NCBI RefSeq assembly: GCF_051903065.1
Contig: NZ_CP178439.1
Reading direction: 5' to 3' (one strand)
DNA length: 64,000 bases
Source: Escherichia coli
GTDB lineage: Bacteria; Pseudomonadota; Gammaproteobacteria; Enterobacterales; Enterobacteriaceae
Of the stretch, positions 9,367 to 22,680 are shown piece after piece. The translations under genes were made by a program, and so were the position numbers. How positions within the stretch are numbered: the first letter of the stretch is position 1; every line of letters begins with the position of its first letter. The notes under the pieces were generated by a model. The model was not told the DNA's origin. It did no database searches and worked only from the letters and a program-made list of their open reading frames with translations.

Positions 9367-9375
9367 GGAGTCCCC

Positions 9376-10353
9376 ATGAAACAAAAATTTAGGGCTACTG
9401 CAATAAGTAGTAATCAACTTAGTTTTTTTTCTATACTCGATATAGATGAAGATGAAATAACGCAAATAGTTGATTCACCCAAAGAGCATTTAAATGATGC
9501 TTACACGTCCGGATTAAACTTTAAATCAGAAGAAAGTAACATTTCTGAGATAAATTATGATTCTGAAAGGCGTGAAAATCACCTTTATGAAAAATCCAAA
9601 TTACTTAAAAATCAGATTTTGCATACAATTAATTTTGCAACAGAAACAGATTATCTATATACGGTTGAAGAATATAACCCAGATTTGGGTGGTCTGGTAA
9701 TAGAATGGACCCCTGAGGATGTGTATGTTGTTTTTCTATCCGCTATGGAAGAGTCTTTGGAAATCATTAAAGAACTAGTGTTGAGGAGAAAGTTATTCTT
9801 CAAAGATGACAATGGTAATATCACAGTGAATCCACTTTTAGAAGCTGAAACACGGTGGTATATGTCAAAATCATTTGAATACACTTGTTTATCTCATGGA
9901 CTTGATGCATGTGAATTTAGAGCGGAATTAAAATCATGGCTCTATTATCATTCGCATCGTTCGATTAGTGAAAACACGAAATTAGCTGAATGCAGGAATG
10001 ATGATGAAATCATTTTGCATGATTGCAATGACGATATGGGCTGGGACATCTTCTTTGATCAGGATTATTTAATGTCAGAAAAAAAACTGGCTGTTAAATG
10101 GACTGACAGGGAAATTATGGATGTTTACATAAAAGCTTTTAAATCCTCATTAGAGTTGTTTGACGAGCTTGTTTCATGTGATCTGTTAACTAAACGAAAC
10201 GCTTTTGGCAAGTTAGAAATCAATCCAATATTCGAAAATCATTTTGAATGGATCATGTCTGAAGCTTTTGAAATAGTGGGAAATCATCTTGGTTATAATG
10301 TGCCTCAAATCAGGAAACTGATGGCAACTATTTGCCAAATGAATCTCAAATAA
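9376..10353 (+). CDS. Hypothetical protein
   Basis: 325-aa ORF, ATG start 10 nt after element E2. Confidence 0.55.
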   Translation: MKQKFRATAISSNQLSFFSILDIDEDEITQIVDSPKEHLNDAYTSGLNFKSEESNISEINYDSERRENHLYEKSKLLKNQILHTINFATETDYLYTVEEYNPDLGGLVIEWTPEDVYVVFLSAMEESLEIIKELVLRRKLFFKDDNGNITVNPLLEAETRWYMSKSFEYTCLSHGLDACEFRAELKSWLYYHSHRSISENTKLAECRNDDEIILHDCNDDMGWDIFFDQDYLMSEKKLAVKWTDREIMDVYIKAFKSSLELFDELVSCDLLTKRNAFGKLEINPIFENHFEWIMSEAFEIVGNHLGYNVPQIRKLMATICQMNLK

Positions 10354-10410
10354 AATGCCACTGGCAAACATCTGCCAGAGGGCGGTGTTTGCATTTTACC
10401 GGAGTTAAAA

Positions 10411-11469
10411 ATGTCTAATGCCGCTATGAAGTTAAATGAAACATCTTCTGATGCTTATGAAAAATTAGAAGCTCTTCTTTCCCCGGATGTTATAAAGTTA
10501 AAACATTATGTGGATAAAGGTGAGTATCTTTTAGTTCTAGCAAAGGACCTTTTTGGTATTCCAGAAATGGATCCAAAGATGGCTGTGCCTGTTTTCAAAA
10601 CTAAAACCTCGTATCGAGCTCCGCTGAACAAAGACTACATACCAAATCCCCGAATACTTGAACAAGTGGTTAAACTGCTTATCAGTCCGGATATAGATTT
10701 AAGTGTGTGTCTTAAAGGTGAGTCCGGTTCTGGCAAGACTGAAATGGTAATGTACATTAGCCACATGATGAATTGGCCGCTGACAATTAAGCAGATCAAC
10801 AGCAATATTCGAGTTGATGAGCTTGAAGGTGAGCGCAGTCTTAATGGTGGTAATACAGGTTTTGTACACAGCGATTTGGTAACGGGATTTCGTAATGGTC
10901 ACCTCATTCTTCTGGATGAAGTGGACAAAATCGATCCTGATACGGCAGCAAAACTTCACATGCCCATTGAACGTAAGCCCTGGTCACTCAGTGCTAATGG
11001 TGGTGAGGTTATAACTGCTAATGGCTACACGCGATTTATTGGTACTGCAAACACAAACATGAGTGGAGGCGCTCGCCGGTTCGTTTCTTCTCAACGTCAA
11101 GATGCAGCTTTTATAAAGCGGTTCTTGATAGTTGAAATGGAGAAGCCCGACAAAGTTGCTTTAACCAATGTGCTTACTAAACGATATAGCTCTTTGCCTT
11201 TTCAGGTCATTGAGAAGTTCGTAAGAGTAGCGATTGCAGTAAATGACTCTGGTACAGAAGACAGTGTGATGGATATTCGTCAATTAGTAGCTTGGGTTGG
11301 CACGTCGATGACGTTAAAAACCTTTAGTCTTCTTGACACTTTCAAAATAGCTTTTGCTTCTGCTTTACCTTTACATGTGGTCGATCTTGTTCTTCAAGCT
11401 ATAGATCTTTCTCTTGGCGAAGACAAGGATAAATCGCTGGAGTATTTCACAGCAAAAAAGTCGAGTTAG
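10411..11469 (+). CDS. AAA+ ATPase, MoxR/CbbQ/CobS-like
   Basis: Walker A GESGSGKT and Walker B HLILLDEVDK; 352 aa; a vWA-domain partner lies two genes downstream. Confidence 0.7.
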   Translation: MSNAAMKLNETSSDAYEKLEALLSPDVIKLKHYVDKGEYLLVLAKDLFGIPEMDPKMAVPVFKTKTSYRAPLNKDYIPNPRILEQVVKLLISPDIDLSVCLKGESGSGKTEMVMYISHMMNWPLTIKQINSNIRVDELEGERSLNGGNTGFVHSDLVTGFRNGHLILLDEVDKIDPDTAAKLHMPIERKPWSLSANGGEVITANGYTRFIGTANTNMSGGARRFVSSQRQDAAFIKRFLIVEMEKPDKVALTNVLTKRYSSLPFQVIEKFVRVAIAVNDSGTEDSVMDIRQLVAWVGTSMTLKTFSLLDTFKIAFASALPLHVVDLVLQAIDLSLGEDKDKSLEYFTAKKSS

Positions 11470-11780
11470 ATGGGATTTGTTATGAAACCTCTGATATTTG
11501 TATCTCAGAGTTATCCCATCTTGAATTTAGTGCGTTTTTAAGTACGGATGGTGCTGCTACCATTGCTATAGCAAAAAACGGAACTAATTTTACTGGACTT
11601 ATGCAACTGAATAACGACTATTCTTTATTGTTTTATCATGATGGTAAAATAAATATGGAAGGTCTGATTAAACAAATGGAATTAAAAGGTTATATGTATC
11701 AGGGAGCAATGGGCAATGATGATGTTGTTGCTGAGTTTCCCGGTATTCTTTTAATTTCACCAGAGTAGCTTTAATATCAA

Positions 11781-11827
11781 CCCTATCGGGAAATCTTTCC
11801 CGTTGGGGAGGGTTTCCCCTTTTTTTT
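11781..11827 (+). terminator. Structured GC-run intergenic element E3
   Basis: CGGGAAA-tc-TTTCCCG hairpin, GGGGA-GGGTT-TCCCC hairpin, T8 tract; GGGTTTC is complementary to the downstream GAAACCC next to the start codon. Confidence 0.5.
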
Positions 11828-11837
11828 GGAGAAACCC

Positions 11838-12965
11838 ATGACTTTAAATACTTCAATGCTTAACAAAGTATCTGCAAAACAAATCTCTGAGAATTTTGCA
11901 AAATCATATCCAGATTTACTGGAAGGTGCAGTTATAACAAAAATTGAAATAAGTGGCTGTCAAGGATCGCGTCGAACCGATAAAATCGATTTGTCTTATG
12001 ATGGAGATGATATTACGGATCAAAAAAGCGTATCTAAAAGCGAAGTACGCTGGATTGACATAAAAGCCCTTAGCTTCAAAAGTACGATTACCAGCAGAAT
12101 ATCAACTCTTTGCTCACGCTTGTGCATCCGCTATAGCAATATGTGGATTTTACCAGTATCCAGTATGGAAGAGTTTCTGGAAGGGGCCCAAGAGATTGAA
12201 CGAGAGTTTCAGGCAGGTATTCAAAACGTTGTAGACAATTATGAGATGCATATTGAGGCTGAAAAAAATAGAAGCCCAAGAATGTCTTCTTTGATTGATC
12301 AGTTGAAATTAACTAAAGATGATTTCATAAAATCCTTTAGATTTAATATTGCTCACTTTATTCCTTTTACGCCTATTAGCGTTGAAGGTGATGAAACCCA
12401 GGACTACTATCAGGAACAATTGATAACAGATCTGGCAGAAGAAGCAATGAAGGTTTATGAAAAAATTAGCAAAAATAACAATTTGCGCTCAAGTACTATT
12501 GACCGACTGAAGCAAATGCAAAATAAGATCATTAGCTTCATGTTTATACATAAAGAGGCGGCAGTACTTGCAGAAGCTATAAAACACATAATGAATAATT
12601 TACCTAAAGGTGCCATTTCTGAACCTCGCGACGTTGCGGTGTTACAGCAGTGGTTTTATTTCATGAGTGATGCTTCAATGTTAAAGCGTATTATTTCAGG
12701 AGAGCAAAAGGTTACTGACTGGTTGGAATCTATTACCAGATCATTTAATCAAAGCTCACAAACAGAACCGAACGCGCTACAGAACACAGGTATTGAAGCT
12801 ATTTTAGATTCAACAAATGTGTTCCAGGTTGAACCTGTCGTAGAGAACGATATAAATAACAGCACGTTTTCAAACACTGATCCTGTAGCTGAACCTGAGA
12901 AATCAGTTTCGCAACAGGAAGACAATGTTGAAAATGGTTTTGATATCGAGCTCAAAGGCTGGTAA
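11838..12965 (+). CDS. Hypothetical protein
   Basis: ORF in track from 11826 (TTG); ATG at 11838 with GGAGAAACCC upstream preferred; 375 aa. Confidence 0.55.
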   Translation: MTLNTSMLNKVSAKQISENFAKSYPDLLEGAVITKIEISGCQGSRRTDKIDLSYDGDDITDQKSVSKSEVRWIDIKALSFKSTITSRISTLCSRLCIRYSNMWILPVSSMEEFLEGAQEIEREFQAGIQNVVDNYEMHIEAEKNRSPRMSSLIDQLKLTKDDFIKSFRFNIAHFIPFTPISVEGDETQDYYQEQLITDLAEEAMKVYEKISKNNNLRSSTIDRLKQMQNKIISFMFIHKEAAVLAEAIKHIMNNLPKGAISEPRDVAVLQQWFYFMSDASMLKRIISGEQKVTDWLESITRSFNQSSQTEPNALQNTGIEAILDSTNVFQVEPVVENDINNSTFSNTDPVAEPEKSVSQQEDNVENGFDIELKGW

Positions 12966-12984
12966 CTGTTTGCTTTATTAAAAA

Positions 12985-13027
12985 CCCCAGATGGGTACTT
13001 CACCATCTGGGTGAGTACCCCTTTTTT
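12985..13027 (+). terminator. Structured GC-run intergenic element E4, interleaved dyads
   Basis: CCCAGATGG/CCATCTGGG and GGGTACT/AGTACCC dyads interleaved (pseudoknot-like or alternative hairpins), followed by TTTTTT. Confidence 0.5.
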
Positions 13028-13042
13028 ATAAAGAGGTATTCT

Positions 13043-15055
13043 ATGAAATTAGATCTTAAATCATCACCGCGCCATATTAAGCGTTTACAGAATATAGCAA
13101 AAGTCATTAGCGGCTTAGGCGATGTAAGAGTTGTAATAGACGACAATACCAAAGGACCGTATTTTGATCCTGTAAATAAAGTTTGTGTTTTACCAAACGG
13201 CGATTATAGCGATGATGACTTTGTCAGTCTGATTGAAGGTTTTACCTGTCATGAAGCTGGTCATGGTCGCTATACCGACAGCGAGGTTTACAGTGACGCC
13301 TTTAATAGTGTTCTCAAGTCATCTGAAGGGTTTACACGCTTCGATGACGGAATGAATGCAGAGTTTGAGAGCCTCGCTGAGAAACGTAAAGCTTATAGCA
13401 GGGCAAAACGTCTTACCGGGCTTATAAATCTGTTCGATGATGTACAGATGGAAGAGAAGGTTGGTAACGATTATCCGGATGCAAAGCGGCGGCTTGCAGC
13501 CACTTACGCACTGATGGTTAAAGCCGGAAGGATGACTCCTGATATATCTTCTCGTCCGGAAAATCCTGTCCTATTTATTGAGTGGTATCTGCTTAACTCA
13601 TTGCGAGTAAAAGTCCTTCAGCAGGCAGGTCACAAAGAAACACTCGATCCGTTTTTTGACTATGCCCAAAAGATACTTTCTCCAGTAATTTCTGATGTTG
13701 AGGAAATTTTTCATGATGCTCTTGGTTGTGAAAATACTCAGGGCTGTGAATCCCTTGCTCGTAAGACCCTGGCTCTTTTAGAGAGACTGCGGGATGAGGC
13801 AAGGGAACAACAGCAGCAGACAGAGCAGGAGGAGCAGGAGGCATATGATGAATCCGAGACCGAGACCGAGACCGATACCGAATCAGAAGATAAATCGCTT
13901 GAGTCGACTGATAGTCGTGAGGATGATTCTGAGGACGATAGTGAAGGTCAGGCAGATACTTCCGATAACTCTGATCTTGCTCAAGAGGGATGTTCTGAGC
14001 CTTCAGAACTTGCTGAAGATAACGAGGGAAATAATGAACCCACCGGTGGCAATCCCACAGGTGATAACATTATTGAAGACGATACTGATGCGATTAACCC
14101 TTCCGAGAGTGAATCAGATGAAGCCAGTTCGACTAACGTTGAAGATGAAAGTAACTTTTCATCGGCTCAATGGGAGATACTGGCAGATTTGTTGGATGCC
14201 TTTCTTGGCAGTGATGAGGATAGCGAAGATTATCACGATGCTTTGGCTAAAGAGATTGAAGGTATTGCATCAAAAGTATCCGATGACGTGAAAGCCGAAT
14301 TCGGTGCTTCTGAATGGGATATCCCTGATCTCCTTATCGATTTGAATGTTTACAATGAGGCTTTGTCTCTGAGTCATTCAATCGGTAGCGACTTGTCTGT
14401 TTTACAGCAGGTTAAAATGCGTGGCCGAAACAAAACTCATGAGCGTGGAATTACCTTCGATGGAAATCGATTAATTCTGTCACCAATGGGAGTTCGTGAT
14501 GTCTTCAGAGCTCAAAGCGAATCTAAAAATAGAGGGCATGTTGGCCTCGTATTAGTTCGTGATATTTCAGCGTCAATGGCTAATGATGAAAGATATATTC
14601 ATGCCATTAAGTCAGATCTTGCTTTATCGATGGCCGCTGAAAGTTTGTCAAAAATGCATGTCTCCAATATAGTCTTTCCCTTCAAGGAAAGTGAATTTGA
14701 GATTATCAAAACGTTTGATCAAAGCGTTGAGGAATCTCTATCGAAATTCACTCTTGGATGTAAGGGTTATTATACCCCTACGGGATCGGCTTTAATGGCA
14801 GCTGTTGATCTGTTACTTGACAGCCAATTCGATAGGAAAATAATTTTTCTTATAACTGATGGTTATCCGAATAAATCGGAATTTACTATCGGCGAAGTTA
14901 TGGAAAAGGCTAAATGTAATGGAATAGAAATCGTTGGTGTTGGTATTAAGACTGATGAAATAATTGGTTTTGAAACGGACACTTTCGTAACAGTTGATGA
15001 TACTTCTTTATTGTCTATTGAAGTCAGTAAGCTAGTTCATCAAATACTTTCTTAA
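13043..15055 (+). CDS. vWA-domain protein with long acidic linker (CobT/ViaA-like partner of the AAA+ ATPase)
   Basis: C-terminal vWA/MIDAS motifs (VRDISASM, TPTGSA, ITDGYPN); central Asp/Glu-rich low-complexity stretch (ETETETDTESEDKS and onward); 670 aa. Confidence 0.7.
   Translation: MKLDLKSSPRHIKRLQNIAKVISGLGDVRVVIDDNTKGPYFDPVNKVCVLPNGDYSDDDFVSLIEGFTCHEAGHGRYTDSEVYSDAFNSVLKSSEGFTRFDDGMNAEFESLAEKRKAYSRAKRLTGLINLFDDVQMEEKVGNDYPDAKRRLAATYALMVKAGRMTPDISSRPENPVLFIEWYLLNSLRVKVLQQAGHKETLDPFFDYAQKILSPVISDVEEIFHDALGCENTQGCESLARKTLALLERLRDEAREQQQQTEQEEQEAYDESETETETDTESEDKSLESTDSREDDSEDDSEGQADTSDNSDLAQEGCSEPSELAEDNEGNNEPTGGNPTGDNIIEDDTDAINPSESESDEASSTNVEDESNFSSAQWEILADLLDAFLGSDEDSEDYHDALAKEIEGIASKVSDDVKAEFGASEWDIPDLLIDLNVYNEALSLSHSIGSDLSVLQQVKMRGRNKTHERGITFDGNRLILSPMGVRDVFRAQSESKNRGHVGLVLVRDISASMANDERYIHAIKSDLALSMAAESLSKMHVSNIVFPFKESEFEIIKTFDQSVEESLSKFTLGCKGYYTPTGSALMAAVDLLLDSQFDRKIIFLITDGYPNKSEFTIGEVMEKAKCNGIEIVGVGIKTDEIIGFETDTFVTVDDTSLLSIEVSKLVHQILS
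14148..14158. repeat. AAAGTWACTTT palindromic motif copy 4
   Basis: AAAGTAACTTT inside the vWA gene acidic region (E-S-N-F). Confidence 0.6.
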
Positions 15056-15063
15056 TAAACTCT

Positions 15064-15099
15064 ACCCAATCGGGGCAAAAGGCCCCGGTGGGTCTTTTT
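15064..15099 (+). terminator. Intergenic element E5, rho-independent terminator
   Basis: ACCCAATCGGGGC-aaaag-GCCCCGGTGGGT nested hairpin followed by CTTTTT. Confidence 0.6.
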
Positions 15100-15126
15100 G
15101 CTCCATGAAGGAATAAGGAGCAAAAT

Positions 15127-15461: not shown

Positions 15462-16694
15462 ATGACTTATGCATCCCCGGCTCTTCGTCGTAATCCACAG
15501 GAAGTATCTGAACACTTTATTAAACTCGTTCATGCTCGAATTGCTGAAGTGTCTGGCTGGAAGTATATATTCGAAAGAATACCTGCTTTCAAAGACGCTT
15601 GTGCAAAAGCCCCGAGCCAGGTTCCTTGCCCGTTTACTGGCGCAGGGAAATCGAAGTTTCGTTTCCGACAAAAAGACCTTTATACCGGATGTGCGATCCA
15701 TAATGACTTTCCGGTAAATGAGTTTTGCGACGGAATTGATGTTCTGGCGAAATATTATGAATTAAGTAAAACGCAGACTTGCAAAAAGATTCTCTCAGAT
15801 TTTTTCGGGATGGATCTGCATGCTCCGTTAACTGACGCCGACATTGAAAATGAACGACGCTATAAATCAGCAGTTCGTGCCACAGAAACTCTTGACCGAG
15901 AGGAAGTGGCAAAGCGAATGCGAAAACTTGATGTGATGTATCACTATACCGGTGAAATCAAGCCTAATACTCCTGTTGCTTTGTACCTCCGTAATCGTGG
16001 GATCTCCCGCTTACTGAGTCACTTACCAAAGGATTTAGGCTTTAATAACCGGATCTACTATTGGGATAAAGATAAGCAGAAATCGATTATCTATCCGGGA
16101 ATGATTGCGATCTATCGTGACACCCGAGGTCGGCCTCTGACTATTCATAGAACATACGTAGACAAAAATGGTGATAAGGCACCTGTAGAAAATCCAAAGC
16201 TGATGATGAAGCCTCCTGCCGATATGACAGGTGGCTCAATTCAGTTGTTTGACCCTCACTATGATTCAGGTAGTTCGACCTGGACACTGGGAGTGGCTGA
16301 AGGGATCGAGAACGCGCTTTCTGTTGTAGAAGCGACTTCAACACCATGCTGGGCAGCCAGCTCCGCATGGTGCCTTGAAAACGTTACTGTTCCTGATTTT
16401 TTACTGCCTCCGCCGGATGTAAAATCTATAAACTTTTATATCTGGGCGGATAAGGATATTGCTAACTCACAAGGCACTCGTGCCGGTATTGAAGCTGCTC
16501 AGCGACTTCAAAGCCGCATGGTTGAGTTTTTGGCTAAACGATATCCCGCATCAAAGCTGACAATTGAAGTCTTCGAACCAGCACAAGATATTCCTGATGG
16601 GAAAAAGGGTATCGACTGGAACGATGTTCTCCAGTTAACAGGGCAGGATGGATTCCCGATTCACTGGGCTCCTGAATGTCTTAATCAGCTGTAA
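15462..16694 (+). CDS. DNA primase-like protein (zinc-ribbon plus Toprim)
   Basis: N-terminal CPFTGAGKSKFRF..GCAIHNDF resembles the primase-helicase zinc-binding motif; Toprim-like VAEGIENALSV and WADKDIANSQG (DxD); track ORF starts at GTG 15390, ATG 15462 preferred. Confidence 0.5.
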   Translation: MTYASPALRRNPQEVSEHFIKLVHARIAEVSGWKYIFERIPAFKDACAKAPSQVPCPFTGAGKSKFRFRQKDLYTGCAIHNDFPVNEFCDGIDVLAKYYELSKTQTCKKILSDFFGMDLHAPLTDADIENERRYKSAVRATETLDREEVAKRMRKLDVMYHYTGEIKPNTPVALYLRNRGISRLLSHLPKDLGFNNRIYYWDKDKQKSIIYPGMIAIYRDTRGRPLTIHRTYVDKNGDKAPVENPKLMMKPPADMTGGSIQLFDPHYDSGSSTWTLGVAEGIENALSVVEATSTPCWAASSAWCLENVTVPDFLLPPPDVKSINFYIWADKDIANSQGTRAGIEAAQRLQSRMVEFLAKRYPASKLTIEVFEPAQDIPDGKKGIDWNDVLQLTGQDGFPIHWAPECLNQL

Positions 16695-16701
16695 CAACGA
16701 T

Positions 16702-16733
16702 AACTCCCCCGCTTTTTGCGGGGGGGGTTATCT
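16702..16733 (+). terminator. Intergenic element E7
   Basis: CCCCCGC-TTTTT-GCGGGGG hairpin immediately after the stop at 16694. Confidence 0.5.
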
Positions 16734-16773
16734 TATCAATATTATATTTTAAAATTGTATTGATAAGATAACC
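16726..16773. promoter_or_regulatory. 14-bp perfect inverted repeat flanking a 20-bp AT-rich spacer
   Basis: GGTTATCTTATCAA (16726-16739) and TTGATAAGATAACC (16760-16773) around TATTATATTTTAAAATTGTA; sits in a 270-bp gene-free interval. Confidence 0.4.
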
Positions 16774-16904
16774 GCTTTCCTTCGTGATAATTACCTGCCT
16801 TTAAGGTCTTTTCACGGCTGAGATGCTTGCTCAGTTAAATAAATGTGCGGTACTACTGGCTATGGTCGGTTGTATGACATGGTTATTCCATAAACTATTA
16901 AAAC

Positions 16905-16930
16905 CCATAACGGGAGTATTACCGTTATGG
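16905..16930. promoter_or_regulatory. 9-bp inverted repeat, candidate operator upstream of the gene at 16965
   Basis: CCATAACGG-gagtatta-CCGTTATGG, 35 bp upstream of the ATG. Confidence 0.35.
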
Positions 16931-16964
16931 TGATGCTCGTCGTTTTACATCGGAGAGCATTTTA

Positions 16965-17486
16965 ATGAATTTTCAAATTAACGAAGTTTTTAATAAATTT
17001 GCTGCTGTTATAAAATCGCGCATCGTCAATGAACCATCGTCATGCTATTTGCTGCATGATAATGAGATAGATATAACGATTTTGAAACATAGCATATTAG
17101 AAAATGACAGAAACCTGTTGTACGTAGTTCGTCCTTCAGGAACGTGTTTGTTGCGTTGTGACAAATATTTCTATCCGAAATATTATCTTCGTTGCCGTGG
17201 AGATTATAAGTCATTCATATATGTCCATCTTGATCTACATAGTGGTGAAGCTAAAGAAATCACATGGGAGCAAGCAGACGATATGCTGTCTAGTCCAGGA
17301 AAACCCCCATTAAAAGGGAATCTTGGACGATTTGAGTATATAAAAGTTGTGGTTGAGGACCTTCGTATTCGAGGTTACGCTGATTATCTTCCTGCGTATA
17401 ATCTTGATGACCTTCGCCGTTTTGCCTTACAGGACGACCGCCCATCCCTTGTCAGATACATTGACAATGTCATGGCAACGGTCTGA
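16965..17486 (+). CDS. Hypothetical protein
   Basis: 173-aa ORF, ATG start. Confidence 0.5.
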   Translation: MNFQINEVFNKFAAVIKSRIVNEPSSCYLLHDNEIDITILKHSILENDRNLLYVVRPSGTCLLRCDKYFYPKYYLRCRGDYKSFIYVHLDLHSGEAKEITWEQADDMLSSPGKPPLKGNLGRFEYIKVVVEDLRIRGYADYLPAYNLDDLRRFALQDDRPSLVRYIDNVMATV

Positions 17487-17512
17487 TTGATTGCTAATTG
17501 ATTTACATATTT

Positions 17513-17539
17513 TCCCTGATGGCCAACCTGCATCAGGGA
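17513..17539. other. Intergenic hairpin
   Basis: TCCCTGATG-gccaacctg-CATCAGGGA dyad between the genes ending 17486 and starting 17565; no downstream T-tract. Confidence 0.35.
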
Positions 17540-17564
17540 GGCCTCAATAACGAATGGAGGCTGT

Positions 17565-18443
17565 ATGAAGTTAGCTACGGACCTGGTAAAAGCTATTTTG
17601 ATTAGAAATGGCGTTGAACCAGTAAATATAAGCGAATCATCTAAGTTATCTTTGAAACAACCACTGACAGAACTTAAATTCAGTTTATATTTGCGAACTG
17701 AGCATTTATCTCACTTCCTACCCGGTTATGTTTATTCTATAAAAGAATGTCCACTGTCATATGACATCGGGATCGAAATTCAGAAAATCTTCGAAAGTTT
17801 ACATTTGTTAAACGAAGAATTTGAATCCCTCGGTTTTGTTTCTGTATGGATAGAAATGCATCAAAGCATTTTTGAACAAAGTCGGTTTAAGAAAAGTAAC
17901 TTTACTTTTCGGGAGGAAGAGGTCGAGCTTGCTAAAGGGCTTGTTTGTTCTCACAATTCACAAATAAGTAATGCGGCTTATTTCTGGCTTCAGCACTTTG
18001 AGGAGTTTATGATTTATGTTCGTAATAAGCTTATCGACCTCTTTCGAGAGGCCTATGACCTGATCCTTGGAATGCAGCAAGTATTTTTCATTCGGGAAAA
18101 GGAAGAGCTGTTGAAAACTATAAGTTATGGCGATGAGCTGTATGAGGTGAAATTCATGGCGGCTGAGCTTTACTCTATCGAACAGAACTTAAAGTGTTCT
18201 GAATCGATAAGTACAAAATCTCAAGCTTCGGCATATATTAACCGCATCCGTGAGTTTGTGCGTTCGGGGTGGAGGCAGGGCTATATAGTCTGCCATCATA
18301 AGCGAAGTAATCAAATTTCATCATTGTCATTACCGATGTACTTGAAAGATACGTCAGGCCGAAGTGCTCGAAAGCGAGTAAAACGTCTTATATCTTCTAC
18401 AGTTTGTGGTAGAAATAAAGATTTAGGTCTTACAGATTTTTAA
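17565..18443 (+). CDS. Hypothetical protein
   Basis: 292-aa ORF; contains one AAAGTAACTTT motif copy. Confidence 0.55.
   Translation: MKLATDLVKAILIRNGVEPVNISESSKLSLKQPLTELKFSLYLRTEHLSHFLPGYVYSIKECPLSYDIGIEIQKIFESLHLLNEEFESLGFVSVWIEMHQSIFEQSRFKKSNFTFREEEVELAKGLVCSHNSQISNAAYFWLQHFEEFMIYVRNKLIDLFREAYDLILGMQQVFFIREKEELLKTISYGDELYEVKFMAAELYSIEQNLKCSESISTKSQASAYINRIREFVRSGWRQGYIVCHHKRSNQISSLSLPMYLKDTSGRSARKRVKRLISSTVCGRNKDLGLTDF
17893..17903. repeat. AAAGTWACTTT palindromic motif copy 5
   Basis: AAAGTAACTTT inside the ORFan gene at 17565-18443 (K-S-N-F). Confidence 0.6.
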
Positions 18444-18453
18444 TTAAATTATA

Positions 18454-18497
18454 CCCATGTGGGGATCACACCCCATATGGGAGTGATCCCTTTTTTT
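18454..18497 (+). terminator. Structured GC-run intergenic element E8, interleaved dyads
   Basis: CATGTGGGG/CCCCATATG and GGGATCAC/GTGATCCC dyads interleaved, then T7; a third GGATCAC copy overlaps the downstream ribosome-binding site. Confidence 0.5.
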
Positions 18498-18513
18498 ATT
18501 GAGAGAGGATCAC

Positions 18514-19269
18514 ATGAAAATTATCGAAAAAATCATTAATGCCTTTTTGGTTGTTCAACATAAAAAAATACAGGTTAAAAACATTACATTTTTAGACAAT
18601 GGGCAGGGCATGTTCTCTGGTATGTCTTTTGATGCTGATGTTTCACTGGAGTTTATGTATGAATCAGCAAAAGCATATAGTTCTTGTTTCTGTGATATTC
18701 CCTTTCCAGGTTTTGAAGATGCAAATCTGGAGGAAATTACGAAATTTCAATTAGATGCTCTGAAGCAAAGAAAGAATCATTCTTTCTTTGTTAACCATTT
18801 GAGGTTTCCTATAGTTTTAAGGGAAGGGTGCAAAATCGAAAGAGGAGAAGTCTATTCAATTTCGAATTGCACTTATAATAAAGAAAGATTGCAGTATCTT
18901 TTTTCTCAGGATATTTACGGTAAGTTGTATAATTCCTTAGAGAAAGAATTAAGCTCGTTTTTCTCATTTATCAATGTTGAGGTGCACGAGTTGTTAAAAG
19001 ATGCTGTATGCTTTGCATTAAAAATCCTGAATAAGATATCTTTGGATACACCTGAAAGACTTATTAAAGCTTTTAATTATCGTGACTGGTATTGTAGTTA
19101 CGATGTTGAGCTTTTTAGGAAAGGCTTACCTGGTCATATTCTGGAAGAGCTCATTGCTCCAGATATCTTACTTTCAGACCTTAACGGTTGTAGAAAAATA
19201 CTTAGAAATGCAAAACGATTTCTAAATGGACATACACAAACCAATTGTGTTTATATTAAATATGAATGA
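18514..19269 (+). CDS. Hypothetical protein
   Basis: Track ORF from TTG 18499; ATG 18514 with GAGAGAGGA upstream preferred; about 251 aa. Confidence 0.55.
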   Translation: MKIIEKIINAFLVVQHKKIQVKNITFLDNGQGMFSGMSFDADVSLEFMYESAKAYSSCFCDIPFPGFEDANLEEITKFQLDALKQRKNHSFFVNHLRFPIVLREGCKIERGEVYSISNCTYNKERLQYLFSQDIYGKLYNSLEKELSSFFSFINVEVHELLKDAVCFALKILNKISLDTPERLIKAFNYRDWYCSYDVELFRKGLPGHILEELIAPDILLSDLNGCRKILRNAKRFLNGHTQTNCVYIKYE

Positions 19270-19462
19270 TGGTTGGGGCCTGTTGATACCTCACACTCAG
19301 CTAAGTTGATGTCTGACAAAGAAATTAATAACCGAAGTGACTTGAAGAATTTTTCAAAGGTCTTTTTCAAAGAGTGTTTAAGTTCTGGTAAGTCGGAATA
19401 TGAAAACCATCTTAGTGAAAAAGAACATGCGCTTCGCTATAATTATTAATTAAAATTATTTT

Positions 19463-19510
19463 CTCCCATAGGGATTTCTCCCTATGGGAGAAATCCCTCT
19501 ATTAAGAGGG
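19463..19510 (+). terminator. Structured GC-run intergenic element E9
   Basis: TCCCATAGGGA and GGGATTTCTCCC/GGGAGAAATCCC dyads (same arms as E2); CCCTCT-atta-AGAGGG can sequester the downstream ribosome-binding site. Confidence 0.5.
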
Positions 19511-19517
19511 TATTGAA

Positions 19518-20438
19518 ATGAATGCTATACAAAAGTTAGTTGAATCTATTCTTGTTAAAATGGGTTTTGTTGGCGCTGTAGTGGAAAATATATATTTGGA
19601 TTCAAAACCATTTCGGCATATTCGATTTGTGGCTGATATTCCAGTAATATCTTTTCTACCTCATTTGGTGAAATATCTTAAGGGTGCAGACCATCTTTAC
19701 AGTGGTAACGATGATTTGCATCCTCTTTTCATTTATTTTTCCGAAGCGGCTACATTAAAAGCAGGTCCTGTAAATCTCGCGAACTTTCGTTTTGAAGTTT
19801 CTATAGCTTCAACTCATTTACGACTGGTCTCAGAGCAGCCTGATTTGCTTTTCAAAGGATTTAACCGGGATAATCTAGAATACGTTTATTACCGCTCAGA
19901 TTTGGCCTCTAAGGATCTTATACTAGGCCTTGTTGAACACGGTTCTCCTTTCATAAAACATCTACATGGACTTATACAAAAGCGAATTTTAAACGAGTTC
20001 TCTCTGATTTTTTCTGTTCTTGAAAAGATTTTAGAAAGCGCGAAGCCACAAATTCTTGCTTGCTTCCATAGTGTTGATTATGAAATGAACGTAAAAATAA
20101 TAGCCGAAGCTATACCTGAAACTGTATCTAATCAGATAGTCACATCTGATTATATAGTTAATTCTATATCAGATGCGGACAAGTTTATAAATCATGTTCG
20201 TCGCTATTTAGCAGGCAGGGTAATGAAGAGGCGGATATACGCTGAATTAGATGTTTGTGAAGAAACATCAAGTATTTCACTAGTGAACTTAGGATGCTTT
20301 ACGTCTCCTCTGCTCGTTACGGAATATCAAATGTTTAAGCCACACTCTTCAGGGTTATATCGAAAAGCTATAAACAACTCCTTAAAACAGTTCAAACCAG
20401 AAATGCATGTACCTTCTGAAGAACTCTTTTATAATTAA
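19518..20438 (+). CDS. Hypothetical protein
   Basis: 306-aa ORF, ATG start. Confidence 0.55.
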   Translation: MNAIQKLVESILVKMGFVGAVVENIYLDSKPFRHIRFVADIPVISFLPHLVKYLKGADHLYSGNDDLHPLFIYFSEAATLKAGPVNLANFRFEVSIASTHLRLVSEQPDLLFKGFNRDNLEYVYYRSDLASKDLILGLVEHGSPFIKHLHGLIQKRILNEFSLIFSVLEKILESAKPQILACFHSVDYEMNVKIIAEAIPETVSNQIVTSDYIVNSISDADKFINHVRRYLAGRVMKRRIYAELDVCEETSSISLVNLGCFTSPLLVTEYQMFKPHSSGLYRKAINNSLKQFKPEMHVPSEELFYN

Positions 20439-20442
20439 TCTA

Positions 20443-20486
20443 ACCCATCCGGGAACCTGCTTCCCGGTGGGAAGCACTTCCTTTTT
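20443..20486 (+). terminator. Structured GC-run intergenic element E10
   Basis: CCGGGAA/TTCCCGG and GGAAG-cac-TTCC dyads followed by TTTTT; GAGGTAGTGTAAATG ribosome-binding context downstream. Confidence 0.5.
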
Positions 20487-20504
20487 AGTCATGAGGTAGT
20501 GTAA

Positions 20505-21368
20505 ATGTTTAAAGAATCTGACCACGTGGAATTTGTTAGTGCCTTTCTTTATCAAAATTTAGGCCTTAATGTTTCCGCTGACGATATAACCGTTCAATTA
20601 TCTGATACTTCGTTCGACAAAGTAACCTTTGATTACGATGTAGATATCGATAATTTAAATTGTATGTTGGATCTCTACATATCTGAGCTAATAAAGCACA
20701 ACGCATCTTACTCCGATTCTATTCTTTTGAAACAAAAAATAATTTATTTTCTTGGAGTATTTAAGAATTTCGGATTTTTTACGTTTGATATTCGCGGATA
20801 TAGTAATACTTTAAGCCCAGTTAAAGTTATTGATATTGTTTCAATGATTATTAATGACTGTGAAGAGTTATCTAAAGCTAATTCTTCTACTGATGCTATA
20901 AGAAATCTTTATCTCGATAAAATGAAGGTGGATGGGAAAGTGTTAGTTGCGAAATTTGCACTTAAACAGTTTTTTCATTCCGACTTTGGTGACTTTATCT
21001 CATTTGTCGAGAAAAGAATTACAGATTGTCTTAATGAAACTTTAAGGATTATCAAAGCTGTTGAACATGGCTTTGTACGTGTAGGGCAGCATAAGATTAA
21101 TCGCCGTATTAATGATGACTTAAAGTTATGCATTGATTTCAATACTGATGATTATCCGGCAAATATGCCAGATATATATATTAAGTTTAACGATACATTT
21201 GATGGGAACGGGGCGTTATATTGTGACAATGATGCCCTCATATCCCTCTATACCGATGTTGCTTCAATTATCAATGTGCCGGTGATGATGGAAGTAAGAT
21301 TGATCAATAAAAGAGGGCGTGTTGTCTGTGATTCTTCGCATTCAACTTACGTATCTCGGCTTTGTTGA
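20505..21368 (+). pseudogene. Hypothetical protein, paralog A; 3' end truncated by IS903
   Basis: Clear paralog of the gene at 22681-23637 (KVDGKVLVAKFALKQFF vs QVDGQVMIARFALQQFW). The ORF runs into the IS903 left end; removing the IS restores a C-terminus similar to the paralog. Confidence 0.6.
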
Positions 21369-22414
21369 ATAAATCGAACTTTTGCTGAGTTGAAGGATCA
21401 GATCACGTATCTTCCCGACAACGCAGACCGTTCCGTGGCAAAGCAAAAGTTCAAAATCACCAACTGGCCCACCTACAATAAAGCCCTCATCAACCGTGGC
21501 TCCATAACTTTCTGGCTGGATGATGAAGCTATTCAGGCCTGGTATGAGTCAGCAACACCTTCTTCACGAGGCAGACCTCAGCGCTATTCTGACCTTGCCA
21601 TCACGACTGTGCTGGTCATTAAACGCGTATTCAGGCTGACCCTGCGCGCTGCGCAGGGCTTTATTGATTCCATTTTTTCTCTGATGAACGTTCCGCTACG
21701 CTGCCCGGATTACAGCTGTGTCAGCAGGCGGGCAAAGTCGGTTAATGTCAGTTTCAAAACGCCCACCCGGGGTGAAATCGCACACCTGGTAATTGATTCC
21801 ACCGGGCTGAAGGTCTTCGGTGAAGGCGAGTGGAAAGTCAAAAAGCATGGCCAGGAACGCCGCCGTATCTGGCGTAAGCTGCATCTCGCCGTTGACAGTA
21901 AAACACATGAAATCATCTGCGCTGACCTGTCGCTGAACAACGTTACGGACTCAGAGGCCTTCCCCGGGTTAATCCGGCAAACCCACCGGAAAATCAGGTC
22001 AGCCGCCGCCGATGGCGCTTACGATACCCGGCTATGTCACGATGAACTGCGGCGTAAGAAAATCAGCGCGCTTATCCCTCCCCGAAAAGGTGCGGGTTAC
22101 TGGCCCGGTGAATATGCAGACCGTAACCGTGCAGTGGCTAATCAGCGAATGACCGGGAGTAATGCGCGGTGGAAATGGACAACAGATTACAACCGTCGCT
22201 CGATAGCGGAAACGGCGATGTACCGGGTAAAACAGCTGTTCGGGGGTTCACTGACACTGCGTGACTACGATGGTCAGGTTGCAGAGGCTATGGCCCTGGT
22301 ACGAGCGCTGAACAAAATGACGAAAGCAGGTATGCCTGAAAGCGTGCGTATTGCCTGAAAACACAACCCGCTACGGGGGAGACTTACCCGAAATCTGATT
22401 TATTCAACAAAGCC
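21358..22414 (+). mobile_element. IS903 (IS5 family), complete, 1057 bp
   Basis: 18-bp terminal inverted repeats GGCTTTGTTGAATAAATC at both ends; 9-bp direct target duplication ACGTATCTC at 21349-21357 and 22415-22423. Confidence 0.9.
21435..22358 (+). CDS. IS903 transposase
   Basis: 307-aa ORF from GTG 21435 (track extends upstream to TTG 21390); spans nearly the whole element between the inverted repeats; matches my recollection of the IS903 transposase. Confidence 0.85.
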   Translation: MAKQKFKITNWPTYNKALINRGSITFWLDDEAIQAWYESATPSSRGRPQRYSDLAITTVLVIKRVFRLTLRAAQGFIDSIFSLMNVPLRCPDYSCVSRRAKSVNVSFKTPTRGEIAHLVIDSTGLKVFGEGEWKVKKHGQERRRIWRKLHLAVDSKTHEIICADLSLNNVTDSEAFPGLIRQTHRKIRSAAADGAYDTRLCHDELRRKKISALIPPRKGAGYWPGEYADRNRAVANQRMTGSNARWKWTTDYNRRSIAETAMYRVKQLFGGSLTLRDYDGQVAEAMALVRALNKMTKAGMPESVRIA

Positions 22415-22529
22415 ACGTATCTCTCGAAAGTAATGACCGATACAGAGTAACTGATCGCACATTACTAATAACTGAAGCTTTTGACGATTTTCGTAACGCG
22501 TCTCAATGATCCTTTTGCTTCAGTCCAAA

Positions 22530-22540
22530 AAAGTAACTTT
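22530..22540. repeat. AAAGTWACTTT palindromic motif copy 6
   Basis: AAAGTAACTTT, intergenic; embedded between CTTCAGTCCAA and TTGGCTGAAG inverted repeats. Confidence 0.6.
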
Positions 22541-22620
22541 GGTTGGCTGAAGACACTTGTCTATGACAATGTAAAATCTGTCGCTGGCATCTTCTTTTAG
22601 CTTAACCAAATTTTTATCTA

Positions 22621-22662
22621 ACCCAGTGGGGAAGTCGCTTCCCTTCTGGGGCACTTCCTCTC
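22621..22662 (+). terminator. Structured GC-run intergenic element E11
   Basis: CCCAGTGGGGAAG-tcg-CTTCCC..GGGG runs ahead of the GAGGTAGTGTATATG start context, as upstream of paralog A. Confidence 0.4.
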
Positions 22663-22680
22663 AAATTCGAGGTAGTGTAT

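What the first reader, a model, noticed from the sequence alone, without database searches (positions are those of the whole stretch)
16695..16964. 270-bp gene-free interval with a 14-bp perfect inverted repeat around an AT-rich spacer, plus a second dyad
GGTTATCTTATCAA (16726-16739) and TTGATAAGATAACC (16760-16773) flank a 20-bp AT-only spacer right after a terminator hairpin. A second dyad, CCATAACGG-N8-CCGTTATGG (16905-16930), lies 35 bp upstream of the next gene. This is the longest non-coding gap in the ORFan array. It may be an operator/promoter region, a protein landing site, or a small origin-like element.
Basis: seen in the sequence. Interest (0 to 1): 0.4.

Follow-up and report, generated by a model that had tools for sequence, protein, structure and literature searches.

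The report
Structured intercistronic spacer in IncHI plasmid
The two inverted repeats are real and conserved, but they look like RNA hairpins inside a long, cold-induced plasmid operon (a weak terminator or stabiliser after a primase-like gene, and a hairpin pair that hides the next gene's ribosome-binding site) rather than protein-binding operators or a replication origin.

Summary
The window is IncHI2 plasmid backbone. The 270-bp gap lies between a primase-like toprim gene and a conserved 173-aa gene. Both dyads exist. IR1 is longer than reported: 16-bp perfect arms that extend to a 22-23-bp AU-rich hairpin, never matched in shuffles. IncHI1 plasmids keep both dyads through compensatory and G·U changes on the sense strand, while IR1's inner sequence is only 33-42% identical. 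That pattern fits selection on a hairpin, not on a protein half-site. Dyad 2 is one copy of a two-hairpin module found before about ten genes of this array. In this module, hairpin A has a CCC…GGG base and hairpin B pairs the Shine-Dalgarno sequence with an upstream tract. IncHI3/5 plasmids keep the module in a 68-nt gap with no room for a promoter. Published R27 microarrays, mapped by gene order, show the genes on both sides equally silent at 37 °C and about 100-fold derepressed in an htdA mutant, with no drop across the gap. I found no convincing conserved σ70 promoter, DnaA boxes, iterons or repeated operator motif. The match of dyad 2 to Rfam ssNA-helicase is partial and fails membership. 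Best reading: a transcribed, structured intercistronic spacer. This is modestly interesting, and function is inferred, not shown.

The parts
15462..16694 (+). Upstream gene: toprim-domain, primase-like protein (410 aa as annotated in RefSeq)
   Evidence: Annotation of the identical pSTM6-275 locus. Pfam DUF7146 + Toprim_3. PHROG 510 DNA primase, E = 1.4e-27.
16704..16726 (+). H1: GC-rich hairpin (9 pairs, 5-nt loop), extendable to 16699-16732 through GATAAC/GTTATC. Weak intrinsic terminator or 3' exonuclease barrier, starting 9 nt after the toprim stop codon.
   Evidence: Predicted -19 kcal/mol. Stem invariant in IncHI1. Its tail GUUAUCUUAU is not a clean U-tract.
16726..16773 (+). IR1: 16-bp perfect arms extending to a 22-23-bp AU-rich hairpin directly abutting H1
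   Evidence: Predicted -20 kcal/mol. H1 + IR1 gives z = -8.9. Five pairs changed on both sides between IncHI2 and IncHI1. Wobbles are 9 G·U cells on the + strand and none that would be G·U on the - strand. The IncHI2b variant turns an A·A mismatch into U-A.
16776..16787 (+). Invariant tract TTTCCTTCGTGA between IR1 and H3, partly unpaired in the predicted structure
   Evidence: Invariant in all five aligned sequences. No complementary target and no other copy in the window.
16783..16816 (+). H3: interrupted hairpin (CGUGA…UCACG closing ACCU/AGGU). In IncHI1 its 3' side is a run of 8 U.
   Evidence: One-sided changes keep pairing as G·U/G-C.
16817..16835 (+). H4: GCUGAG/CUCAGU hairpin, invariant. 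Its loop holds the ATG (16823) of a candidate 36-codon upstream ORF (16823-16933).
   Evidence: The ORF is open from the same ATG in IncHI1 (25 codons) and IncHI1B (28 codons), but the substitutions are mostly non-synonymous and it has no proper SD (read; inference).
16847..16891 (+). H5/H5b: predicted hairpins in the most conserved block (90-95% identity to IncHI1). Overlaps the weak promoter-like hexamers ATGACA (16874) -N16- TATTAA (16896). A second weak pair is TTCACG (16811) -N18- TTAAAT (16835).
   Evidence: There is no covariation here, because the block hardly varies.
16905..16930 (+). H6 = dyad 2 = 'hairpin A' of the junction module (CCAUAACGG-GAGUAUUA-CCGUUAUGG)
   Evidence: Predicted -13.6 kcal/mol. 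IncHI1 differs by A-U→C-G and A-U→G·U. IncHI3/5 keep the CCAUA…UGG base with a wholly different 8-bp upper stem. Partial hit to RF03070 at 23.4 bits.
16932..16961 (+). H7 = 'hairpin B': GAUGCUC.UCG pairs with CGG.GAGCAUU and encloses the Shine-Dalgarno GGAGAG (16952-16957). An alternative helix A' (16914-16938, -12.7 kcal/mol) pairs the H6 loop and 3' arm with the anti-SD. A closing helix P1 (16896-16903 with 16960-16967) covers the ATG.
   Evidence: The SD is predicted 85-99% paired at 20-45 °C in five IncHI lineages. The module gives z = -5.3.
16965..17486 (+). Downstream gene orf173. It follows the toprim gene in IncHI1, HI2, HI3 and HI5. No family match.
   Evidence: The single-sequence AlphaFold model is unusable (pLDDT 43).
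8881..15126 (+). Upstream copies of the two-hairpin junction module, in the gaps 8881-8937, 9316-9375, 11775-11837, 12966-13042 and 15056-15126
   Evidence: z from -2.4 to -5.7. R27 counterparts keep the folds.
17487..22674 (+). Downstream copies of the module, in the gaps 17487-17564, 18444-18513, 19450-19517, 20439-20504 and 22622-22674
   Evidence: z from -2.3 to -7.5. R27 counterparts show compensatory changes, for example GUGAUCC/GGAUCAC → GUAAUCC/GGAUUAC.

Best explanation
The interval is a transcribed, highly structured spacer between two cistrons of a long co-directional IncHI backbone operon (trhI … AAA-ATPase, DUF3150, VWA, toprim, orf173, ORFan genes). In R27 this operon is silent at 37 °C, induced at 25 °C and controlled by HtdA. 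The dyads act as hairpins in the sense-strand RNA, not as DNA binding sites.

Proposed roles:
1. H1 plus IR1 form a compound 3' structure just after the toprim stop codon. H1 is a leaky terminator or exonuclease barrier. IR1 is a 22-23-bp AU-rich duplex of the size RNase III cuts. Together they would set the stability or processing of the upstream and downstream mRNA halves.
2. Dyad 2 (H6) and the following hairpin H7, closed by P1, form the junction module that precedes about ten cistrons of this array. It holds the SD and ATG of orf173 in helices, so translation needs the structure to be opened. The likely route is the alternative pairing A' (H6 loop and 3' arm with the anti-SD) or upstream translation.

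In IncHI3/5 the module sits 9 nt after the toprim stop. IncHI1/HI2 carry an extra conserved structured segment of about 200 nt (H1-H5) in between.

Shown: the sequences, their conservation, the compensatory changes, the predicted folds, and the recurrence of the module. Taken from the literature: co-regulation of the flanking genes in R27. Inferred: transcription through the gap in IncHI2, RNase processing, and the opening mechanism.
For: - Identity: the region is 100% identical to many IncHI2 plasmids.
- Fold strength: the sense strand folds to -99.8 kcal/mol (z = -7.2), against -82.2 (z = -5.4) for the antisense strand.
- Consensus structure: seven hairpins, with 6 pairs changed on both sides and many G·U substitutions.
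- Wobble asymmetry in the two strand-neutral dyads: 12 G·U cells on the + strand and 0 on the - strand.
- IR1: inner identity to IncHI1 is 33-42%, yet symmetry is kept, and the core is more conserved than the flanking genes.
- IncHI3/5: H6-like and SD-pairing hairpins are kept in a 68-70-nt gap with no room for a promoter.
- Recurrence: the same two-hairpin fold occurs in 11 of 12 short gaps tested, 9 of them with z ≤ -4. It is kept in R27 with compensatory changes and at the IncHI3 VWA junction.
- SD occlusion: orf173 has the least accessible SD of 50 genes tested in the window.
- R27 microarrays (PMC7366339, Tables S3/S4), with toprim = R0202 and orf174 = R0201 by gene order: 2740 versus 3378 in the htdA mutant and 27 versus 32 in wild type at 25 °C. 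Both are about 100-fold derepressed and about 10 at 37 °C.
Against: - Only about three independent lineages carry the long gap, and the most conserved block (16817-16900) does not vary enough to test its helices.
- The genome-wide G·U asymmetry is biased, because the structure was predicted on the + strand.
- SD pairing is only marginally stronger than in shuffled upstream sequence (Fisher p = 0.044; for this gap, 58 of 150 shuffles did as well).
- Fixed-window SD accessibility does not separate array genes from other genes (p = 0.23).
- The R-number mapping rests on gene order, and array intensities depend on the probe.
- Equal RNA on both sides would also fit a similarly regulated internal promoter.
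- No transcript ends, RNase sites or translation data exist for this gap.
- The strong conservation of H3-H5 is not explained by a spacer role alone.
Confidence: 0.55

Rival explanations
1. Internal promoter/operator region. The conserved core 16800-16900 is an activator-dependent promoter for orf173 and the ORFan genes, for example TrhR/TrhY-dependent. H1 terminates the toprim operon. One or both dyads bind a regulator.
For: - The core is 82-95% identical between IncHI1 and IncHI2, higher than the coding flanks.
- H1 passes a terminator-like scan.
- Weak conserved hexamers exist: TTCACG-N18-TTAAAT, and ATGACA-N16-TATTAA. The second would start transcription near the foot of dyad 2.
- Two of three long gaps in the R27 AN operon showed promoter activity in lacZ fusions (PMC7366339).
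- Equal, co-regulated RNA on both sides also fits a co-regulated promoter.
Against: - No promoter-like site inside the gap in the consensus scan. PWM scores are only 5.6-7.2 and not positionally strong in all lineages.
- IncHI3/5 express the homologous gene from a 68-nt gap with no promoter space.
- The dyads evolve like helices.
- The arm motifs are not repeated elsewhere.
Confidence: 0.2
2. The gap encodes a small regulatory RNA. One form is a sense RNA processed from the toprim 3' UTR (H1, IR1, the invariant UUUCCUUCGUGA tract as seed, then H3 with a U-run). The other is a cis-antisense RNA over the orf173 ribosome-binding site, ending at the dyad-2 hairpin, in the manner of FinP/traJ.
For: - In IncHI1, H3 ends in eight U, like an sRNA terminator.
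- A 12-nt invariant tract lies between variable hairpins.
- On the - strand, dyad 2 is followed by GUUUUAAUAG and passes the terminator-like scan.
- The two stem-loops over an RBS resemble the FinP target layout (own knowledge).
- A weak - strand promoter-like site lies at +97/+122 of orf173 in IncHI1 and HI2.
Against: - No complementary target in the window.
- The IncHI2 H3 has only four U.
- The antisense promoter is weak and is not at the same place in IncHI3/5.
- The wobble pattern favours the sense strand.
- No Rfam family matches.
Confidence: 0.1
3. The hairpins act in single-stranded DNA. They could be a priming or loading signal (ssi-like) for the primase-like protein encoded just upstream, or a hairpin used when the plasmid enters a recipient as a single strand.
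For: - The element sits next to a primase-like gene.
- The fold is strong on one strand.
- G·T wobbles are tolerated in DNA hairpins.
- Dyad 2 resembles the hairpin of RF03070. I recall that family's authors flagging it as possibly ssDNA, but neither the paper's text nor its supplements mention it, so this rests on my own knowledge.
Against: - Dyad 2 belongs to a family positioned on ribosome-binding sites, including junctions unrelated to the primase.
- The region is at the end of Tra2, far from Tra1, where the literature places oriT (PMC7366339 for the Tra1/Tra2 layout; oriT location from my own knowledge).
- There is no -35/-10 pair within a stem long enough for an Frpo-type promoter.
- The RF03070 match fails membership.
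Confidence: 0.07
4. A short leader ORF (16823-16933, 36 codons; 25-28 codons in IncHI1/HI1B) is translated. Its terminating ribosome opens H6/H7 and so restores translational coupling across the long gap.
For: - The ORF is open from the same ATG in three lineages.
- Its stop lies 5 nt before hairpin A in IncHI1, inside hairpin A in IncHI1B, and on the anti-SD arm in IncHI2 (read).
- In the other junctions the upstream stop lies mostly 5-10 nt before hairpin A.
Against: - It has no usable SD, and its ATG lies in the loop of H4.
- The substitutions are mostly non-synonymous, with one synonymous among about ten.
- The stop position is not conserved.
- An open frame of 25 codons is not rare in a 90%-conserved block.
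Confidence: 0.06
5. A DNA-level site: a small origin, a recombination site, an attC-like site, or a cruciform target.
For: - A long perfect inverted repeat with an AT-rich centre can extrude as a cruciform.
- Hairpins recur in consecutive gaps of an ORFan array, which superficially resembles a cassette array.
Against: - No DnaA boxes, iterons or skew change.
- No core/inverse-core motifs were seen by inspection.
- The upstream genes are a fixed syntenic block in many plasmid families.
- Each gap holds two separate hairpins tied to the SD, not one bulged attC stem.
- In pSTM6-275 (IncHI2), whose gap is identical to the window's, PLSDB/MOB-suite types replicons (IncHI2A, IncN, rep_cluster_1088), and none of the 27 features annotated in the 25 kb around the gap is a replication gene.
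Confidence: 0.02

Closest known systems
RBS-occluding intercistronic hairpins and translational coupling (for example MS2 coat/replicase, E. coli rpmI-rplT, IncP trbB leader; from my own knowledge)
   Same: The SD, and in some lineages the start codon, of orf173 lies in a conserved helix directly downstream of another hairpin. An alternative pairing (A') could free it. The upstream stop codons of the sister junctions lie mostly within ribosome reach of hairpin A.
   Different: The module recurs at about ten junctions with a common CCC(A/U)…GGG hairpin base. Here it lies 210 nt from the upstream stop, so direct coupling is impossible in IncHI1/HI2. No experiment exists.
Intrinsic terminators and 3' stabiliser or RNase III processing hairpins in polycistronic mRNAs (REP stabilisers, T7 early-region sites; from my own knowledge)
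   Same: A GC-rich hairpin sits 9 nt after a stop codon, followed by a 22-23-bp AU-rich duplex. RNA levels continue across it in R27.
   Different: There is no clean U-tract. No cleavage or 3'-end data exist. IR1 occurs only in the IncHI1/HI2 lineages.
Long structured gaps of the R27 AN (Tra2) operon, with processed transcripts and internal promoters (PMC7366339)
   Same: Same plasmid family and the same HtdA/temperature regulon. The gaps are of similar length (197-249 bp) inside a co-transcribed unit.
   Different: Those gaps were tested by circRNA, RACE and lacZ fusions. This one was not, and it shares no sequence with them as far as I examined.
Rfam RF03070 ssNA-helicase motif
   Same: The hairpin CCAUAA.GG-(N)AGUAUUA-CC.UUAUGG matches model positions 3-29, including the loop.
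   Different: - It scores 23.4 bits against a gathering score of 41.5.
- It lacks the 3' tandem UGUAGCA repeats that true members carry.
- True members found here come almost entirely from gut and rumen metagenome-assembled genomes, mostly labelled Clostridia or its families.
- The one other proteobacterial pattern match lies in what reads as ankyrin-repeat-like coding sequence by inspection (one search lists no ORF there).
- The resemblance is best read as coincidence.
FinP antisense RNA / traJ leader of F-like plasmids (from my own knowledge)
   Same: Two adjacent stem-loops cover the RBS of a plasmid gene. The complementary strand of the distal stem-loop is followed by a U-rich tail.
   Different: No convincing antisense promoter, no sequence similarity, and the wobble pattern favours the sense strand.

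Membership tests
Rfam RF03070 ssNA-helicase | Score at or above the curated gathering threshold (41.5 bits) | tested here: not met
   23.4 bits. E = 0.03 when only the 300-nt gap is searched and 0.43 for 4 kb. Not listed when the whole window is searched.
Rfam RF03070 ssNA-helicase | Hairpin with the conserved loop UAGUAUUA and the stem CCAUAAGGG/CCCUUAUGG | tested here: met
   CCAUAACGG-GAGUAUUA-CCGUUAUGG aligns to model positions 3-29 with one compensatory pair.
Rfam RF03070 ssNA-helicase | 3' tail with the tandem repeat UGUAGCA UGUAGCA (model positions 35-49) | tested here: not met
   True members at 45-71 bits carry it. The window has UGAUGCUCGUCGUUUUAC instead.
Intrinsic (Rho-independent) terminator, for H1 | GC-rich stem-loop immediately followed by a U-tract | tested here: inconclusive
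   A stem of 9 pairs, 8 of them G-C, passes the loose scan. The tail is GUUAUCUUAU, with no run of three or more U, and it is also the 5' arm of IR1.
Intrinsic (Rho-independent) terminator, for H1 | Drop in downstream RNA in vivo | tested here: not met
   R27 arrays give toprim (R0202) 2740/27 and orf174 (R0201) 3378/32, for the htdA mutant and wild type at 25 °C. This is literature data for the IncHI1 homologue, mapped by gene order.
Palindromic operator for a dimeric DNA-binding protein | Half-site sequence conserved among relatives, and/or the site recurs at other regulated promoters | tested here: not met
   The inner half of each IR1 arm is replaced in IncHI1, with pairing kept. The arms have no other copy with one mismatch or fewer in 64 kb, and the match count with up to 3 mismatches (11) is within the chance range (mean 6.7, largest 12). 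The same holds for dyad 2.
Replication origin | DnaA boxes, iterons and an AT-rich unwinding element near a rep gene | tested here: not met
   No DnaA-box match inside 16695-16964 and no enrichment in the window. No direct-repeat family in the gap. No skew change. No rep gene nearby.
RNA thermometer (ROSE / FourU type) | SD paired in a marginally stable helix that melts between about 25 and 42 °C | tested here: not met
   The SD is paired, but the predicted unpaired probability stays at 0.15 (IncHI2) or 0.01 (IncHI3/5) from 20 to 45 °C. This is a prediction only.
Frpo-type single-strand promoter / ssi signal | A long hairpin that rebuilds -35 and -10 boxes at correct spacing, located in the leading region next to oriT | tested here: not met
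   The IR1 stem is 23 bp, too short to hold both boxes. The best hexamer pair is not conserved. The locus is at the distal end of Tra2. Primase-dependent priming cannot be tested with these tools.
IncHI two-hairpin junction module (defined here) | Hairpin A with a CCC(A/U)…GGG base, followed within 0-2 nt by hairpin B whose 3' arm contains the SD, ending 3-8 nt before the start codon | tested here: met
   16905-16961 fits this description. Ten further gaps in the window do too, as do their R27 and IncHI3/5 counterparts. The family is defined by inspection. No covariance model was built.

The most novel reading that the evidence does not exclude
The recurring two-hairpin junction is a dedicated switch used at about ten consecutive gene boundaries of a 25 °C-induced IncHI operon. 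Hairpin A would carry an SD-like copy, followed by an anti-SD tract, often a U-run, and then the true SD. A ribosome terminating upstream, or a plasmid-encoded RNA-binding factor that recognises the common CCCAU…GGG base, would flip the pairing. That would couple translation, or attenuate transcription, gene by gene. The IncHI1/HI2-specific insert of about 200 nt (H1, IR1, the invariant UUUCCUUCGUGA tract, H3-H5) would be an added riboregulator or processed small RNA controlling the primase partner gene orf173.

Concerted three-way changes at some junctions hint at this. For example, GGAUCAC / GUGAUCC / GGAUCAC in IncHI2 becomes GGAUUAC / GUAAUCC / GGAUUAC in R27. An SD-like copy is clear at only about half of the junctions.
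Probability: 0.2. Interest if true: 0.6.

Novelty: new member of a known kind. Interest (0 to 1): 0.3.

Why it matters
IncHI plasmids are major carriers of multidrug, mcr and heavy-metal resistance, and most of their backbone genes have no known function. This result assigns both dyads to RNA structure and ties the flanking genes to the HtdA/temperature regulon. Nearly every boundary in this 15-gene block carries the same hairpin pair, which gives concrete, mutable targets for testing how the block is expressed. It also links the toprim gene and orf173 as a conserved pair. For the scan as a whole, it shows that conserved palindromes in plasmid gaps need a covariation check before they are called operators or origins.

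Tried and rejected
- Rfam scans of the gap, of 4 kb around it and of the whole window gave only sub-threshold hits.
- I followed the ssNA-helicase lead with a pattern scan. It found 0 hits in viral contigs and 49 in genome contigs, nearly all uncultured gut and rumen genomes, mostly labelled Clostridia. Rfam scoring of those loci showed that the defining 3' repeat is absent here. The only proteobacterial match lies in what reads as ankyrin-repeat-like coding sequence by inspection (one search lists no ORF there). The supplement of the paper describing the family is not held.
- I searched the window for further copies of the IR1 arm, the dyad-2 arm, the invariant tract and its complement as an sRNA target. 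Counts were at chance level.
- Ter-like (GTTGTAAC) and DnaA-box searches found nothing in the gap.
- σ70 scans on both strands and in all lineages found nothing strong or conserved.
- The RNA-thermometer idea failed: no predicted melting.
- A test for SD sequestration beyond base composition was only marginal (p = 0.044). Fixed-window SD accessibility, array genes versus others, was not significant (p = 0.23). The upstream 90 nt are, however, significantly more structured (p = 1.5e-4).
- Pfam, NCBIfam and PHROGs gave no family for orf173 or the ORFan genes. The single-sequence AlphaFold model of orf173 was too poor to use.
- Relatives outside IncHI (Aeromonas, Pseudomonas, IncC) do not show the module.
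- The cross-lineage alignment A3 puts the IncHI3/5 hairpin in a different register, so formal pair counting across all five lineages was not done.
- The FORC_082 variant (L004) was set aside as a likely error-rich assembly: the toprim gene is not annotated there and the gap has indels.
Full report
**Where the window comes from.** The 900 bases around the finding are 100% identical to more than a thousand large conjugative plasmids of Salmonella, E. coli, Enterobacter and Klebsiella typed IncHI2 (MOBH, MPF_F). In pSTM6-275 the gap lies at the distal end of the Tra2 transfer region. The gene order there is trhN, a reverse-oriented gene, and trhI. Three hypothetical genes follow, then AAA-ATPase, a small ORF, DUF3150, VWA, a 73-aa ORF and the toprim gene. 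Next come the gap, a 173-aa gene and a run of 290-320-aa hypothetical genes, all on one strand. The toprim protein is primase-like (Pfam DUF7146 + Toprim_3; PHROG 510 DNA primase, 1.4e-27). The rest of the window holds the Tus-like gene, an integrase, hha and the tellurite cluster. It does not hold Tra1, where the literature places oriT.

**The observation.** All elements are present.
- IR1 has 16-bp perfect arms (16726-16741 and 16758-16773). It continues to 23-nt arms at 87% complementarity with a 2-nt tip, so it is one long AU-rich hairpin rather than two half-sites around a spacer.
- The spacer has one G.
- IR1's left arm shares GGTTATC with the extended stem of the GC-rich hairpin H1 (16704-16726).
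- Perfect inverted repeats with arms of 14 bp or more never occurred in 40 dinucleotide shuffles of the window. A 9-bp dyad such as dyad 2 is expected about four times per shuffle.

**Conservation.** IncHI1 plasmids (R27, pHCM1, pCP53-mcr) and an IncHI1B-typed group carry a homologous gap of about 274 nt.
- Against IncHI1 the flanking genes are about 75% identical.
- The distal 200 nt of the gap are 82% identical, with peaks of 90-95%.
- The inner part of IR1 is only 33-42% identical.
- IR1 nevertheless remains a 21-23-bp hairpin. Five pairs changed on both sides, and further one-sided changes give G·U. The IncHI2b variant turns an A·A mismatch into U-A.
- Dyad 2 changes A-U to C-G and A-U to G·U.
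- In the two dyads, which are strand-neutral by construction, all 12 wobble cells are G·U on the sense strand, and none would be G·U on the other strand.
- The sense strand folds to -99.8 kcal/mol (z = -7.2), against -82.2 (z = -5.4) for the antisense strand.

This is the pattern of selection on a single-stranded hairpin read from the gene strand, not on a protein half-site.

**What dyad 2 is.**
- IncHI3/HI5 plasmids of Klebsiella have the same toprim-orf179 pair, but their gap is only 68-70 nt.
- That short gap contains a hairpin with the same base (CCAUA…UGG) and a completely different 8-bp upper stem. A second hairpin follows, pairing GCUCUCC with the Shine-Dalgarno GGAGAGC. A closing helix includes the AUG.
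- The IncHI2 equivalent is H6 (dyad 2), H7 (16932-16961, enclosing GGAGAG at 16952-16957) and P1 (16896-16903 with 16960-16967).
- The SD is predicted 85-99% paired from 20 to 45 °C in five lineages, so it is not a melting thermometer.
- An alternative helix A' (16914-16938, -12.7 kcal/mol) pairs the H6 loop and 3' arm with the anti-SD arm. The terminator-like scan also flags it.

**The same design recurs.**
- When I folded every gap of the co-directional array, 11 of the 12 short gaps gave the same picture. A hairpin with a CCC(A/U)…GGG base starts 1-26 nt, mostly 5-10 nt, after the upstream stop. It is followed at once by a hairpin whose 3' arm is the SD, often with a U-run in the loop.
- Nine of the twelve have z ≤ -4, with no shuffle folding as well.
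- The R27 counterparts keep both hairpins with compensatory changes. At some junctions a segment inside hairpin A, the anti-SD and the SD region change in concert: GGAUCAC/GUGAUCC/GGAUCAC becomes GGAUUAC/GUAAUCC/GGAUUAC.
- IncHI3 shows the module at its VWA junction. Aeromonas, Pseudomonas and IncC relatives do not.
- Controls temper this. SD pairing alone is only marginally beyond shuffled upstream sequence (Fisher p = 0.044). A fixed-window accessibility measure does not separate array genes from others (p = 0.23). The upstream 90 nt are, however, more structured (median -28.9 versus -18.9 kcal/mol, p = 1.5e-4), and orf173 has the lowest SD accessibility of the 50 genes tested.

**Is the gap a transcription boundary?**
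- Gibert et al. 2020 (PMC7366339) published R27 microarrays at 25 and 37 °C for the wild type and an htdA mutant.
- I mapped R-numbers by gene order between two anchors: R0001 = trhI and R0194/R0195 = IS2. Fifteen RefSeq genes fill R0196-R0210. This gives toprim = R0202 and orf174 = R0201.
- Signals at 25 °C, htdA mutant / wild type, run as follows: VWA 15984/403, 73-aa gene 5679/49, toprim 2740/27, orf174 3378/32, next gene 6669/129, then 3245/33 and 3955/104. All are about 10-80 at 37 °C.
- RNA therefore does not fall across this gap, and genes on both sides are derepressed about 100-fold together.
- The simplest reading is read-through of H1, whose tail is not a clean U-tract. A co-regulated internal promoter would give the same numbers.
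- Promoter scans found nothing strong or conserved. The best are TTCACG-N18-TTAAAT (16811/16835) and ATGACA-N16-TATTAA (16874/16896).

**What remains unexplained.**
- IncHI1/HI2 carry about 200 extra nucleotides (H1, IR1, the invariant TTTCCTTCGTGA, H3, H4, H5) between the toprim stop and the ancestral junction. This insert is more conserved than the neighbouring genes.
- I propose that H1 plus IR1 act as a leaky terminator, a 3' barrier and an RNase III-size duplex. That is inference from anatomy.
- The invariant tract has no target or second copy in the window.
- A 25-36-codon ORF opens at the same ATG (16823, in the H4 loop) in three lineages and ends near hairpin A. It lacks an SD and evolves mostly by non-synonymous changes.

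**Known families.**
- Dyad 2 hits Rfam RF03070 (ssNA-helicase) at 23.4 bits, and the loop matches exactly.
- True members were retrieved with a pattern scan and scored 45-71 bits. They come almost entirely from uncultured gut and rumen genomes, mostly labelled Clostridia, and carry a 3' tandem UGUAGCA repeat that is absent here.
- The only other proteobacterial match lies in what reads as ankyrin-repeat-like coding sequence by inspection (one search lists no ORF there). So this is not a member.
- There are no DnaA boxes, iterons or skew change.
- No Rfam family reaches threshold anywhere in the window.

**Verdict.** The operator, landing-site and origin readings are not supported, although an internal promoter in the conserved core cannot be excluded. 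The best-supported explanation (about 0.55) is a transcribed, structured intercistronic spacer. IR1 and H1 would shape the 3' side of the primase-like cistron. Dyad 2 would be half of a recurrent hairpin pair that occludes the orf173 ribosome-binding site. This is a new member of a known kind. The recurrence of the junction module across an entire thermoregulated operon is the most interesting by-product.

Noticed in passing
window 8881-22674 (gaps listed under parts): Nearly every gene boundary of the co-directional array carries the same two-hairpin module: a CCC…GGG hairpin followed by an SD-pairing hairpin. It is conserved with compensatory changes in R27 and present in IncHI3/5. I know of no published description.
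   Followed up: partly
window 15349-15461: The gap between the 73-aa ORF and the toprim gene holds a long hairpin (about 19 bp, GCGUUGUGGGUUUCUC…GAGAAACUCACAAUGC). It is conserved in R27 and IncHI3. In R27 the 3' arm contains the annotated toprim start codon.
   Followed up: no
window 19267-19269: TGA here replaces TGG in pSTM6-275. This truncates the third ORFan gene (311 aa elsewhere) at codon 252 in this plasmid.
   Followed up: yes
window 58387-58470: A 14-bp perfect inverted repeat with a 20-nt spacer (TAACAGCCTAAAAG…CTTTTAGGCTGTTA), plus further ACAGCTTTTAGG / AACAGCCTG copies. It lies upstream of the DNA cytosine methyltransferase gene and looks like a repeated regulator-binding motif.
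   Followed up: no
window 7614-8007 and 22359-22674: Two longer gaps in the same array (394 and 316 nt) also fold strongly (-123.7 and -92.7 kcal/mol). The second ends in a junction module.
   Followed up: no
L006 (p56415CZ_MCR_9) 3145-4145, equivalent to window position 16794/16795: IS903B is inserted just after TGATAATTAC in the gap. The distal gap, orf173 and the following four or five genes of the ORFan array are missing, yet the plasmid is still typed conjugative.
   Followed up: partly
R27 genes R0204/R0203 (homologous to window 15055/15127): Published array signals drop 3-fold (htdA mutant) to 8-fold (wild type) between the VWA gene and the 73-aa ORF. The stronger polarity point therefore lies one gap upstream of the finding.
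   Followed up: no
L021, L027, L041, L064 and other metagenome-assembled genome contigs, mostly labelled Clostridia or its families: True RF03070 (ssNA-helicase) members consist of a hairpin followed by tandem UGUAGCA/GUGGCA repeats just upstream of a gene start. The layout is reminiscent of a relaxase or Rep nick region.
   Followed up: no
window 37794-37830 and 18766-18790: Two further long perfect inverted repeats: 15-bp arms with a 7-nt loop (ACAGAAAGGTGCTGC…), and a 12-bp palindrome inside the third ORFan gene.
   Followed up: no
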